Assembly: GCA_000002445.1 (NCBI GenBank)
Contig: CP000066.1
Location: 32,001 to 96,000, forward strand
Origin: Trypanosoma brucei
Taxonomy: Eukaryota
DNA length: 64,000 nucleotides
Direction: 5' to 3'
Shown one piece after another: positions 10,701 to 13,700 of the stretch (position 1 is its first letter; the number at the start of each line of letters is the position of its first letter). A program made the position numbers.

Positions 10701-13700
10701 AAAACATCAGTATCGCAACTCACTTCTTTCTTAATGTCTATACATTTTCTGAAATAACCCTCTAATTTTACAGGTAGAATAGAACATGAAATTTAGTACC
10801 TTAAGAACTTTACTATCACTTTTGCTCTTACATTTAGTGTGTTTAAGCTCAATATTTCTTTAACGTGATGGAACAAATAACAAAAATTTGTAATACTGAA
10901 TGATTTTAAGAAACACAGAGTGTTTGTGGGTGCTGTTCAAACTTATGTAACTCAAAGATGGTGTAGACTCATATTGAGTGCCAAACTGAGCCATGTTGAA
11001 ATTATTACAATTTCTATTTGAGGTTTGTATATCCATGTTAAAAGGTCTAGATGGGTTATGCAATATTTAGAAAAACAGAATACAAGTGATGAGGATATTG
11101 TAATTCATTGGGATGGCTCGGATGCTATAGTTAGTGATGGAAATAAGTATGAGAATGCTGTGGAATATTTTATTCAAAATACTGCTAAAAATGAAGAGAA
11201 GTTTAGTTGAGAAGATATATTAAAAGAGAAGCATATTTCCCCTATTATATTCATGACAATATCAGAGTGTTATGCTCCTCAGTTGGATTTGCTTATGAAC
11301 TCAGATCAAAAGGAGCATGTGCAGAGATGTTATTGGTATTTCAATGTTGTAAACAGGACAGAGGAGGATAAGAAGCTACCGCACTTACTGAAGTCACCTC
11401 CAAGTGGAAAACCTTATCTTAGTGGCGGTTGTTTAATAGTGCGAGTGTTAGTATTTAAAAAGTTTTAATATGCGTTTGATGAAATACTTAGGGTGACGGA
11501 TGAATTGTTGTCAGAACAAAGTATTTAAAAACCTCGGCTAATATGGAAAGCAATTCAGTAAGAAGCTGTTGGTTGAAAGATTTGTGTTGAGGAGAGGGAT
11601 GATTGTGTTAGATTATGGGAAGAGATTTTTTGTATTCATAGTAGTTATGAGTTTGATGAGGATCTATTTATTCATTTTACAAGTTATGTGCCTGCATGGG
11701 GAAAAGAAAGCGAAGTTTATTGTGAAAATCTTACTTGGTAGAAAGAGTTGTAAAGTGAAAAATTCAGTACGACTTATTTGAAAATATTTAGGCTTTTGCA
11801 ATAGATGGAGGAAAATGGGATCTTGAATTTCGGCACATATGTGGTGCTGCATTGAAGAGTTCAACATGTTTAACGCCAATAAACTGTAAAAATAAAGTAA
11901 AAAAAGCAAAAGTGTTCCATAACTTACGAAACATAAGACCTGTGGGTCCTGAATGCGAAGTATTGTGAATGTCAACGCCAAAACTTTCACTAATTTTTCT
12001 TCAAGACTCTCCACCCAATTAAAGACAACACCAAATACACGGAGTGGAAGCAAATGTTAACGGTGCTTGCTTTTATGTCACTAACAACGCCGAAATATGC
12101 TGCGGCAACAAAAAAGCACAGCAGATCACATCACAAACCTGGCAAAGCAGCTGGCTAACCTAAAGCAACAACCATTCAATCTCAAACCGCAGCTAGAACT
12201 TCACAACCATCTCAAGCAGGCGATGGGACAACTTGCACCACCACCGGCGGCAAACACACAAGCACAGTGGCAACAGAAAAAAGAGCAATGCGAAGCTATA
12301 AAGAAAGCAGCACAATGCAGGGAAAAGCAGCCAACCTGTTGATGGAAAGGTAAAAATGACGATGATGGAGAACACTGCAAATTGAATACGACACATGTAA
12401 CAGAACAAGCAAAACAAGAAGGTGCAGGAGAAGAGAATGGAAAGACAACAGCAACAGGGAAATACAAGGGTAAGAAAAAGGATGAGTGCAAATCTCCGGA
12501 TTGTAAGTGGGAGAGTGAAACTTGCAATCCGTAGATTTGCACTCATAAGAAATTTTCTCTGATTACTGCTGCTTTTATGAGTTAGGTAAAATTTTAGTAT
12601 TCGAAATTTTAAGTTTTCTTTTTGAATTTTATGTTTTATGAAATTTACTAAACATTACTATATTGAGAGAGTTTACTAATATTTTCTGGCATCTGGTATA
12701 TTTTAACATTTTTGACGGAAATGCGCATATTAGTGAAAATTATGAAATTTTGGTTAAATGTGTATGAAAGCGGTAAATGGGCTCAAACTAATAAGGTGAG
12801 AGAGTGTGAAAAATGAGTGACATCCTAATTTTGTTTATTTTGCTTATTTTATGGATATTATTTAGGGTATAATAGAATTGAAAATGATAATGGTAATAAT
12901 GATAAAAGTGTGTTGTGAGTGTACAGTAATATTGTGAGGACAGTGAGTCAACACCAGGAATAACATTTAAAATAGAGAAAGAATAAGCGATTAAATTCGA
13001 CTTGGAGATTACTAGACGTATTAAAGGAGCTTCAACTGTAAGCTCTAAATCGGCAGGATTATGAAAATCATACGAAACTGAGAAAAACAACAAACAAGGA
13101 GCAATTTATAAAGCTAACTTGGGTGTTAGATTTGTAGCCGCTGCAACTCAGGGGTTTTCGAAATCACACTGAGTTTCGGTACAGAGTGAGAAACAAGCTT
13201 TTAATTTTACCTAAACATGTGTAAGAAAAACAACTTAACGATTAACTAACTTGATTCTCAGAGAGACAACGCTGGAAGGTTTTTTATCGCCATCTGCAAT
13301 ACTTGGAGTGGTTGCAGGCTGCTAAAGAAGACCGATATGCACAGGGTTCGACGAAAAGGGAAGGATGTGACAAATCACCAGAGAAAAAGCAGAAAACAAG
13401 CATTACAGGTAATTTTGTAAAGCCAGTAGTCTGTCAATGTATCAAAACAATGGTACAAACCAGCATCTGTTCCTGAGAACAATAACGTATTAGAATTTCA
13501 AGCCAAATGCGAAAAAATATGTAACTAATCATAGGGTACTAGACCAAAACCATTGTGAAGACCTATCATATGCAATGACTCAAATTCTACAAGACTCATA
13601 ATCCCCAACACACTGTAGCACTAGGTACCTGGCTCATATCCGTTCAAACATGCTCAGCAAGGCGGTGTCCATAATATCAGCCCTAGTAATCGTATCCACG

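What the first reader, a model, noticed from the sequence alone, without database searches (positions are those of the whole stretch)
10755..11850. Dispersed ~1 kb ESAG-like pseudogene element present three times, always between a 70-bp block and a VSG
The copies are at 10755..11850, 19835..20825 and 62150..62760. They share peptide segments (…NAVEYF(I/M)QNTA(K/E)NEEKFS…, …EDKKLPHLLKSP(P/S)SGKPYLSGG(C/G)LI…, …GELLKGSEEWWSKQSIYKP…, …ERWKFSTRELVKIKFFD…) and nucleotide flanks (AAACTGAGCCATGTTGAAATTATT(A/C)CAATTTCTATTTGAGGTTTGT). All are broken ORFs. I cannot place the family confidently from memory. ESAG3-type pseudogenes are the commonest non-VSG passengers in T. brucei arrays, so that is my best guess. 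The identical position, just 5' of a VSG in each case, suggests they travel with VSG cassettes when array segments duplicate.
Basis: partly seen in the sequence, partly recalled or inferred. Interest (0 to 1): 0.55.

Follow-up and report, generated by a model that had tools for sequence, protein, structure and literature searches.

The report
Three decayed ESAG3 pseudogenes in VSG array
The repeated ~1 kb element is three old, broken copies of ESAG3, the trypanosome gene for the enzyme that adds glucose to the surface coat protein; each sits just upstream of a coat-protein (VSG) gene in a silent gene array, which is a known and ordinary feature of Trypanosoma brucei subtelomeres.

Summary
The window has exactly three ESAG3-like segments, all on the + strand: c1 10786-11889, c2 19868-20858 and c3 62150-62793. 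They align to each other at 70-81% nucleotide identity. A repaired translation matches expression-site ESAG3 of T. brucei at E=3.5e-165 (74% identity, full length).

All three are dead. c1 has 8 stops and 5 frameshifts. c2 has 7 stops, 3 frameshifts, a ~102-nt deletion and a lost DxxD metal site. c3 lacks codons 1-~125, carries an 87-nt deletion, and has 1 stop and 2 frameshifts.

Each lies between a 70-bp repeat and a VSG, 164-264 nt upstream of the VSG start codon. Two ESAG3 pseudogene loci from T. b. gambiense and T. b. equiperdum show the same layout.

The idea that the copies travel with their VSG in recent array duplications is not supported here. Homology stops at the ESAG3 stop codon and ~60-140 nt upstream of the ATG. 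The downstream VSGs are unrelated (20.9% identity, the same as background). The copies are old paralogues (dS 0.6-1.2, dN/dS 0.25-0.45) reshaped by patchy gene conversion.

ESAG3 pseudogenes in VSG arrays, and 3' of 70-bp repeats in expression sites BES7 and BES15, are already published. Verdict: real, correctly named, ordinary.

The parts
10642..10785 (+). Short 5' flank of copy 1 that is still alignable with other ESAG3 pseudogene loci (likely remnant of the ESAG3 upstream/5'UTR region)
   Evidence: blastn of T. b. gambiense locus L001 5360-6240 against window 10642-11534 gives 73.7% identity, starting 144 nt before the ATG. MAFFT alignment of c1, c2 and L001 5' flanks.
10786..11889 (+). ESAG3 pseudogene copy 1 (c1), full length (codons 1-368 plus TAA). 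It has 8 in-frame stops and 5 frameshifts, and is 66.6% identical to ESAG3 at amino-acid level. DxxD is retained, but G216C, W242L and H54Y are changed.
   Evidence: Frameshift-aware alignment to P0001. tblastn E=3.5e-120. Key residues. 21/23 family-conserved residues retained.
10983..11028 (+). 46-nt stretch shared with c2 (45/46 identical). It contains a premature TGA at codon 79 (11019-11021) and derived codons 70, 77 and 78 shared only by c1 and c2.
   Evidence: Codons 62-86 diverge by 10.7% against 25.2% in the rest of the 5' half (p=0.006).
19807..19867 (+). Short alignable 5' flank of copy 2
   Evidence: L001 5438-5922 against window 19807-20284 gives 74.9% identity. Alignment.
19868..20858 (+). 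ESAG3 pseudogene copy 2 (c2), codons 1-368 with a ~102-nt internal deletion (junction 20278/20279, about codons 143-186). It has 7 stops and 3 frameshifts. The DxxD metal site is destroyed (D110K, D113Y). It is a mosaic: the 5' half resembles c1 and the 3' half resembles c3/L002.
   Evidence: Mosaic test: 28:11 against 57:93 informative sites, Fisher p=2.4e-4.
20362..20529 (+). Gene-conversion-like patch in c2 shared with c3 (codons 205-260): 7.7% divergence against 30.9% in the rest of the 3' half.
   Evidence: p=4.8e-10. Other pairs are 19-28% divergent in the same tract.
62150..62793 (+). ESAG3 pseudogene copy 3 (c3). It is 5'-truncated (starts near codon 125-129) and carries an 87-nt in-frame deletion (junction 62214/62215) also present in a T. 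b. equiperdum pseudogene. It has 1 stop and 2 frameshifts, and is 73.8% identical to ESAG3 at amino-acid level. It holds the 155-codon open stretch 62252-62719.
62303..62470 (+). Partner of the c2 conversion-like patch in c3
10084..10118 (+). 70-bp repeat core upstream of c1
19374..19397 (+). 70-bp repeat core upstream of c2
60639..60923 (+). (AAT)54 tract plus 70-bp repeat cores upstream of c3. About 1.2 kb of unique sequence (60924-62149) separates them from c3.
12054..12709 (+). VSG fragment 164 nt downstream of the c1 stop: signal-peptide-like start, C-terminal domain, GPI-signal-like tail and 3' 16-mer. There is no N-terminal domain.
   Evidence: Pfam PF10659 E=5.2e-16.
21031..22536 (+). 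Intact B-type VSG (501 aa), 172 nt downstream of the c2 stop
   Evidence: Pfam PF13206 E=2.3e-67 and PF10659.
63058..64000 (+). B-type VSG, open to the end of the window, 264 nt downstream of the c3 stop
   Evidence: Pfam PF13206 E=2.4e-63. Translation.

Best explanation
The element is ESAG3, present as three independent, non-functional pseudogenes in the upstream spacer of three of about 20 VSG cassettes. That spacer is the stretch between the 70-bp repeat and the VSG. The cassettes form a silent subtelomeric VSG array of a Trypanosoma brucei-group genome. Intact ESAG3 encodes an ER-resident, Mn2+-dependent GT-A glucosyltransferase (LH3/PLOD3-like) that O-glucosylates VSG. These copies cannot make that enzyme.

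Shown:
- Family identity.
- Multiple disabling lesions in every copy.
- Same strand as the VSG, with each pseudogene stop codon 164-264 nt 5' of a VSG start.
- Homology confined to the ESAG3 gene plus about 60-140 nt upstream.
- Unrelated downstream VSGs.
- Deep divergence between copies, with a residual purifying-selection signature.
- Local high-identity patches and a 5'/3' phylogenetic conflict.

Inferred:
- The three copies descend from different ESAG3-family lineages that were functional for much of their separate history.
- They were seeded into, or left behind in, array cassettes by ectopic recombination between expression sites and arrays.
- They then decayed neutrally as passengers of the spacer.
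- They kept exchanging short segments with other ESAG3 copies by segmental gene conversion, the same process that shuffles VSG pseudogenes. One such patch probably spread the shared TGA at codon 79 between c1 and c2.
- They do nothing now except add a little dispersed homology.
For: Family. The repaired translation against 5.8 billion proteins gives a best hit to the ESAG3 cluster at E=3.5e-165, 74% identity and full length. Cluster members are named ESAG3. Against 1.84 billion representatives, the next intact relatives are 31-35% identical ESAG3-like proteins of T. brucei, T. vivax and T. conorhini.

Enzyme. The family profile hits the human LH3 GT domain (6wfv, E=4.4e-7), aligning DxxD and the LNxGG loop. 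An AF2 model of P0001 (pLDDT 84.5) has the LH3 GT domain as its top Foldseek PDB match (E=4.4e-9). This agrees with bioRxiv 10.64898/2026.01.27.701950.

Pseudogene state. Stops, frameshifts, deletions and truncation are listed. Catalytic residues are lost in c2 (D110K, D113Y) and c1 (W242L, G216C).

Context. The VSG Pfam domains, the 70-bp repeats and the VSG 3' 16-mers all lie on the + strand.

Old paralogues. Nucleotide identity is 68-77%, dS is 0.6-1.2 and dN/dS is 0.25-0.45. Third-position excess gives p=0.02, 5e-5 and 0.017.

No co-duplicated flanks or VSGs.

Mosaicism. c2 sides with c1 in the 5' part and with L002 in the 3' part (p=2.4e-4). The c2-c3 patch is 7.7% against 30.9% divergent (p=4.8e-10).

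Same architecture elsewhere. T. b. gambiense L001 reads 70-bp, ESAG3 pseudogene, 198 nt, VSG. T. b. equiperdum L002 reads ESAG3 pseudogene (with the same 87-nt deletion as c3), 171 nt, VSG.

Literature.
- ESAG3 'is also in VSG arrays' (PMC3607257).
- ESAG pseudogenes are prevalent in subtelomeric VSG arrays (PMC4766357; PMC2771046).
- An ESAG3 pseudogene lies 3' of the 70-bp repeat in BES7 and BES15 (PMC2567434).
Against: - The stop-to-ATG spacing is similar at five loci (164-264 nt) without any sequence similarity. Pure passive decay does not explain this.
- c1 and c2 share a premature stop. On its own that would suggest descent from an already dead ancestor. I attribute it to a short conversion patch, but for that tract the statistics are modest (p=0.006) and the region is also conserved in L001.
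- dN/dS was computed with a simple Nei-Gojobori count on a protein-guided alignment, which biases it slightly downward.
- I could not place the window in a named genome, so the existing annotation of these exact copies was not checked.
- No expression data were available.
Confidence: 0.9

Rival explanations
1. The three copies arose by duplication of whole array segments (70-bp repeat, ESAG3 pseudogene and VSG together), so each pseudogene has always travelled with its VSG.
For: - All three have the same order and orientation, and each stop codon lies 164-264 nt from a VSG ATG.
- The same layout occurs in L001 and L002.
- The VSG after L002's pseudogene is 34.5-37% identical to the VSG after c2 (E=4e-55; E=2.6e-74). 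That is above the 21-26% background, so an ancient co-duplication is possible for that pair.
- By the accepted model of VSG gene conversion, anything lying between the 70-bp repeat and the VSG is copied with it.
Against: - Spacers on both sides of the pseudogenes have no detectable similarity.
- The VSGs after c2 and c3 are 20.9% identical, which equals background, and have no blastn match, whereas the pseudogenes themselves are 76-77% identical.
- c1 is followed by only a C-terminal VSG fragment.
- If pseudogene and VSG had been duplicated together and decayed together, VSG synonymous sites and spacers should be at least as similar as the pseudogenes.
Confidence: 0.1
2. The copies are relics of array-resident ESAG3-related (GRESAG3-type) genes. 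These would have been functional in place in the subtelomere and died there one by one, and would not be copies exported from expression sites.
For: - dN/dS of 0.25-0.45 and the third-position excess between copies imply long separate histories under purifying selection.
- The copies are only 66-74% identical to BES ESAG3, whereas BES copies are at least 90% identical to each other.
- The preprint reports about 50 intact ESAG3-related genes in subtelomeric and internal regions.
- The 87-nt deletion in c3 and L002 is in frame, so that lineage may have been functional.
Against: - In the protein databases searched, no intact protein is closer to these copies than BES ESAG3.
- A position 164-264 nt upstream of a VSG ATG leaves little room for an ESAG3 3'UTR and a VSG 5' processing region, which is odd for a working gene (inference).
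- This differs from the main explanation only in where the ancestor lived.
Confidence: 0.35
3. The pseudogenes are retained because they serve as recombination homology. They would act as an alternative upstream anchor, besides the 70-bp repeat, for copying the adjacent VSG into expression sites that carry ESAG3 or an ESAG3 pseudogene.
For: - Patchy conversion and mosaic structure show that these sequences do recombine.
- Hertz-Fowler et al. noted that BES recombination breakpoints coincide with ESAG3 loci and that BES7 and BES15 carry an ESAG3 pseudogene 3' of the 70-bp repeats.
- Recombination 'between ESAGs' occurs during VSG switching (PMC12137147).
- The placement just 5' of the VSG is consistent across five loci.
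Against: - The copies are 24-33% diverged from each other. The longest exact matches are only 24, 25 and 42 nt, which is poor substrate for homologous recombination (inference from general knowledge of mismatch sensitivity of HR in T. brucei).
- Only 3 of about 20 cassettes have one.
- The decay pattern (stops, frameshifts, deletions) shows no constraint.
Confidence: 0.1

Closest known systems
ESAG3 (expression site-associated gene 3) of Trypanosoma brucei bloodstream expression sites, e.g. CAQ57304 / Q26748 (368 aa)
   Same: c1 and c2 have a hydrophobic N-terminus of the same type. c1 keeps DGSD, and all three keep the LSGG loop. c1 keeps 21 of 23 family-conserved residues.
   Different: The window copies are not intact: they have stops, frameshifts, deletions and a truncation. 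They are not in an expression site, because there are no other ESAGs and the context is an array of about 20 VSG cassettes. They are much more diverged than BES copies are from each other (at least 90% identical).
ESAG3 pseudogenes 3' of the 70-bp repeats in Lister 427 BES7 and BES15 (Hertz-Fowler et al. 2008, PMC2567434)
   Same: Same order: 70-bp repeat, ESAG3 pseudogene, VSG.
   Different: Those are telomeric expression sites, whereas these are internal array cassettes. Sequence relationship to those copies could not be tested because no BES DNA was available in the tools.
Array ESAG3 pseudogenes of other Trypanozoon genomes: T. b. gambiense DAL972 FN554968 (L001) and T. b. equiperdum CM010678 (L002)
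   Same: Same family, same orientation relative to the VSG and similar stop-to-ATG spacing (198 and 171 nt). L002 shares the 87-nt deletion with c3. L001 shares the alignable 5' flank with c1 and c2.
   Different: They are 62-73% identical at nucleotide level (codon alignment), so they are not orthologous positions. The 3' half of L001 belongs to a more divergent subfamily (49-65% identity).
Human LH3/PLOD3 glycosyltransferase domain (PDB 6wfv, 6fxr), Pfam PF25342 GT_PLOD
   Same: The intact ESAG3 family shares the GT-A fold, the DxxD motif and the glycine loop (profile E=4.4e-7; Foldseek E=4.4e-9).
   Different: About 15% sequence identity, with a different substrate and oligomeric state (per the 2026 preprint). 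This bears only on the ancestral gene, not on the pseudogenes.

Membership tests
ESAG3 gene family (T. brucei) | Significant full-length sequence homology to bona fide expression-site ESAG3 | tested here: met
   E=3.5e-165, 74% identity, 100% coverage; cluster members are named ESAG3; tblastn E=3.5e-120 (c1), 3.7e-102 (c2) and 9.5e-84 (c3).
ESAG3 gene family (T. brucei) | Intact ORF of about 368 codons | tested here: not met
   8, 7 and 1 in-frame stops and 5, 3 and 2 frameshifts; deletions of ~102 nt (c2) and 87 nt (c3). c3 lacks codons 1 to ~125. They are therefore pseudogenes of the family, not functional members.
ESAG3 gene family (T. brucei) | GT-A catalytic residues reported for ESAG3 (D110, D113, G215-G216, W242, E244/Q245, H297) | tested here: not met
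   c1 has G216C and W242L. c2 has D110K, D113Y and E244K. In c3 the DxxD region is absent and E244K is present. Residue list from bioRxiv 10.64898/2026.01.27.701950.
ESAG3 gene family (T. brucei) | GT-A fold related to the LH3/PLOD3 GT domain (tested on the intact relative P0001, not on the pseudogenes) | tested here: met
   (profile against PDB, LH3 E=4.4e-7). (AF2 pLDDT 84.5; Foldseek top hit 6wfv, E=4.4e-9). (Pfam GT_PLOD is sub-threshold for P0001 but passes for the distant relatives P0039 and P0043).
ESAG3 gene family (T. brucei) | Location in a telomeric VSG expression site with other ESAGs | tested here: not met
   The window is a tandem series of about 20 cassettes of 70-bp repeat, VSG and 16-mer on one strand. 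No other ESAG-like ORF was recognised. This is the array-resident class described in PMC3607257.
Subtelomeric VSG array cassette (T. brucei) | 70-bp repeat upstream, VSG with Pfam A- or B-type N-domain and C-terminal domain, and conserved 3' 16-mer TGATATATTTTAACAC | tested here: met
   19 matches to the 70-bp core against 0 expected. PF00913, PF13206 and PF10659; 13 16-mer matches against 0.17 expected.
   The only significant hits are ESAG3 and ESAG3-like proteins. Pfam gives nothing else.
Recent segmental duplicate of a VSG cassette | Flanking spacers and the adjacent VSG are as similar as the repeated element itself | tested here: not met
   (no flank similarity). (VSGs 20.9% identical, which equals background, with no nucleotide match).

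The most novel reading that the evidence does not exclude
ESAG3 pseudogenes placed a near-constant ~165-265 nt upstream of a VSG start codon define a distinct, conserved cassette sub-type. It is seen in this window and in T. b. gambiense and T. b. equiperdum. In this reading the dead ESAG3 acts as a second upstream homology block for VSG gene conversion into expression sites that carry ESAG3 or an ESAG3 pseudogene. That would bias which silent VSGs get activated. The conversion patches seen in c2/c3 and c1/c2 would be footprints of that traffic.
Probability: 0.1. Interest if true: 0.45.

Novelty: already known. Interest (0 to 1): 0.13.

Why it matters
It matters little on its own. ESAG3 pseudogenes are routinely annotated passengers of T. 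brucei VSG arrays, and the layout of 70-bp repeat, ESAG3 pseudogene, VSG is published for expression sites BES7 and BES15.

Three details have modest value.
- ESAG3 was recently shown to be the VSG O-glucosyltransferase, so the size, age and recombination behaviour of its large pseudogene pool is of some interest for how the functional copies evolve.
- These copies show that array ESAG3 pseudogenes undergo the same short-patch gene conversion as VSG pseudogenes.
- The repeated placement about 165-265 nt 5' of a VSG start, with no conserved sequence in between, is unexplained and could be checked genome-wide.

Tried and rejected
- Pfam on the raw and repaired pseudogene translations gave no hit. 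Pfam has no ESAG3 model, and only a sub-threshold GT_PLOD hit appears for intact ESAG3.
- I tried to place the window in a public assembly through exact look-up of two intact VSGs (21031-22536 and 33865-35445). Neither is on record, so strain, chromosome and existing annotation remain unknown.
- I looked for shared flanks with blastn (word 7, E<=1e-3), MAFFT and shuffled-control local alignment. Nothing appears beyond ~60-140 nt 5' of the ATG and about 10 nt after the stop.
- Permissive tblastn with all window VSGs and six-frame Pfam of the unique 1.2 kb upstream of c3 (60940-62164) gave nothing.
- I first took the VSG after c3 to be A-type from its sequence. Pfam shows it is B-type.
- I considered that the TGA shared by c1 and c2 proves a dead common ancestor. 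I rejected this as the sole explanation, because dN/dS between copies is well below 1 and c2 is a mosaic.
- I considered the c2 and c3 deletions to be the same event. c3 and L002 share exact boundaries (87/88 nt). The c2 deletion is larger (~102 nt) and encloses them, so the relationship is ambiguous.
- Berriman 2005 and Marcello & Barry 2007 are not held in the library, so statements about genome-wide ESAG3 pseudogene counts are not cited.
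Full report
**What is there**

The window is a one-strand array of VSG cassettes.
- The 70-bp repeat core occurs 19 times against 0 expected, always on the + strand (refined map).
- The VSG 3' 16-mer occurs 13 times against 0.17 expected.
- The long + strand ORFs carry Pfam VSG A-type, B-type and C-terminal domains.

This gives about 20 cassettes. 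In them the VSG 3' end lies only ~190-280 nt from the next 70-bp repeat, while the 70-bp-to-VSG spacer is 1.0-2.3 kb.

**Observation check**

blastn of the first copy against the window finds exactly two other places, at 70-81% identity with E-values from 7e-10 to 2e-86. tblastn with ESAG3 protein finds the same three places and nothing else credible. A frameshift-aware protein-to-DNA alignment gives the limits and lesions below.

| Copy | Limits | Codons covered | Stops | Frameshifts | Other lesions |
|---|---|---|---|---|---|
| c1 | 10786-11889 | 1-368 | 8 | 5 | none |
| c2 | 19868-20858 | 1-368 | 7 | 3 | ~102-nt deletion, junction 20278/20279 |
| c3 | ~62150-62793 | ~125-368 | 1 | 2 | 5' truncation; 87-nt deletion, junction 62214/62215 |

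It is present in c1 and c2 only and contains a shared premature TGA at codon 79.

**Identity**

A repaired translation hits a cluster of proteins named ESAG3 from T. brucei expression sites at E=3.5e-165, 74% identity and full coverage. An exhaustive HMMER scan of 1.84 billion representatives with intact ESAG3 finds, beyond pseudogene fragments, only ESAG3-like proteins of T. brucei, T. vivax and T. conorhini at 31-35% identity.

**What the ancestral gene does**

Three results of my own point to a GT-A glycosyltransferase.
- A profile of the family matches the glycosyltransferase domain of human LH3/PLOD3 (E=4.4e-7) across the DxxD motif and the LNxGG loop.
- An AlphaFold2 model of ESAG3 (pLDDT 84.5) has that domain as its best PDB match (Foldseek E=4.4e-9).
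- Pfam GT_PLOD is sub-threshold for ESAG3 itself but passes for distant relatives.

This agrees with a 2026 preprint showing that ESAG3 is a Mn2+-dependent, UDP-glucose-specific O-glucosyltransferase that modifies VSG3. That work identifies D110, D113, H297, G215-216, W242 and E244/Q245 as active-site residues.

In the window copies, c2 has D110K and D113Y, c1 has W242L and G216C, and c3 lacks the N-terminal half. None can encode the enzyme.

**Are they recent co-duplicates with their VSGs?**

No, for four reasons.
- Outside the gene, similarity extends only ~60-140 nt 5' of the ATG, and this shows when the T. b. gambiense locus L001 is included. It extends only about 10 nt past the stop.
- The rest of both spacers is unrelated by blastn, MAFFT and shuffled-control local alignment, with z about 0.
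- The VSGs after c2 and c3 are both B-type but only 20.9% identical. That is within the 21-26% seen for any pair of B-type VSGs here, and there is no nucleotide match.
- The element after c1 is only a C-terminal VSG fragment.

The pseudogenes themselves are 68-77% identical. Had the cassette been duplicated as a unit and decayed, flanks and VSG synonymous sites should be at least that similar.

**Age and history**

Pairwise dS is 0.6-1.2 and dN/dS is 0.25-0.45. Third codon positions carry a significant excess of differences: p=0.02 for c1-c2, 5e-5 for c1-c3 and 0.017 for c2-c3. Much of the divergence therefore accrued while the lineages were under purifying selection, and inactivation came later.

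The copies are also mosaics.
- In codons 74-145, c2 sides with c1 over the T. b. equiperdum copy L002 by 28:11 informative sites. In codons 187-368 it sides with L002 by 93:57 (Fisher p=2.4e-4).
- A 168-nt tract (c2 20362-20529, c3 62303-62470) is 7.7% diverged against 30.9% in the rest of the 3' half (p=4.8e-10). Other pairs are 19-28% diverged in the same tract.
- The c1/c2 46-mer with the shared TGA looks like a smaller patch of the same kind (10.7% against 25.2%, p=0.006). The support is weaker because that region is generally conserved.
- c3 shares its 87-nt deletion, with the same boundaries, with L002. That deleted lineage therefore exists at non-orthologous loci in different Trypanozoon subspecies.

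**Position**

'Between a 70-bp block and a VSG' is nearly forced by geometry, since about 85-90% of the non-VSG sequence in the array lies there. This is an inference.

A more specific regularity is that the pseudogene stop lies 164, 172 and 264 nt before the VSG ATG in the window, and 171 and 198 nt in L002 and L001. The intervening sequence is not conserved. Under uniform placement within each spacer, the three window values together have a post-hoc probability of about 0.01. I cannot explain this regularity and record it as unexplained.

**Comparison with what is known**

- ESAG3 is explicitly described as the ESAG that is 'also in VSG arrays' (PMC3607257).
- ESAG pseudogenes are described as prevalent in subtelomeric arrays (PMC4766357; PMC2771046).
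- ESAG3 pseudogenes lie 3' of the 70-bp repeats in BES7 and BES15, and recombination breakpoints coincide with ESAG3 loci (PMC2567434).
- ESAG3 is the one ESAG that is not monophyletic between expression-site and other loci (PMC3605285).

The finding is therefore a correct recognition of a known, ordinary feature.

**Rival readings**

The 'homology anchor' reading is not excluded but is weak. The copies are 24-33% diverged, and the longest exact matches between them are 24, 25 and 42 nt.

**Limits**

- I could not identify the source genome.
- No expression-site ESAG3 DNA was available for nucleotide-level trees.
- dN/dS comes from a simple counting method on a protein-guided alignment.

Noticed in passing
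window 20362-20529 and 62303-62470: This 168-nt tract of c2 and c3 is 92% identical, embedded in sequence that is ~69% identical (p=4.8e-10). It looks like a short gene-conversion patch between two dead ESAG3 copies 42 kb apart.
   Followed up: yes
window 11890-12053, 20859-21030, 62794-63057; L002 6788-6958; L001 6599-6796: The distance from the ESAG3 pseudogene stop to the VSG start codon is similar at five loci (164, 172, 264, 171 and 198 nt), although the intervening sequences show no similarity (z about 0 against shuffles). This is unexplained.
   Followed up: partly
window 4584-4820 and 60639-60799: Long pure trinucleotide tracts, (ATA)79 and (AAT)54, each directly abut a 70-bp repeat core. 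They look like expansions of the TAA-rich part of the 70-bp repeat.
   Followed up: no
window 12054-12709 and 46988-47366: These are two VSG remnants consisting essentially of the C-terminal domain plus the 3' 16-mer, with no N-terminal domain. The first sits directly after ESAG3 pseudogene c1.
   Followed up: partly
window 28725-33865: There is an unusually long 5.1 kb between a 70-bp repeat and the next recognised VSG. Frame 3 of 29700-32000 reads like a degenerate VSG C-terminus and 3' region, followed by a degenerate 70-bp-like motif near 31950. Pfam finds nothing there.
   Followed up: partly
window 26910-27848, 37984-38697, 40974-41660: These long + strand ORFs sit where a VSG N-terminal domain is expected, but they have no Pfam VSG hit and only weak tblastn matches to VSG ends nearby. 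They may be very divergent VSG N-domains.
   Followed up: partly
window 60924-62149: This 1.2 kb of A/C-rich sequence between the 70-bp repeat and the truncated 5' end of c3 has no similarity to anything else in the window, no VSG-like translation and no Pfam hit. Its origin is unknown.
   Followed up: partly
L002 5423-5945 (T. b. equiperdum CM010678): In this related locus the ESAG3 pseudogene is truncated at codon 74. It is joined directly to a VSG C-terminal fragment with no 70-bp repeat in between. This is another example of ESAG3 pseudogenes truncated at junctions with VSG-derived sequence.
   Followed up: no
L001 5501-6598 (T. b. gambiense FN554968): This near-full-length ESAG3 pseudogene has a 5' half close to c1 (86% in codons 74-145). 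Its 3' half is only 49-65% identical to all the other copies, so it is itself a mosaic of two ESAG3 subfamilies.
   Followed up: partly
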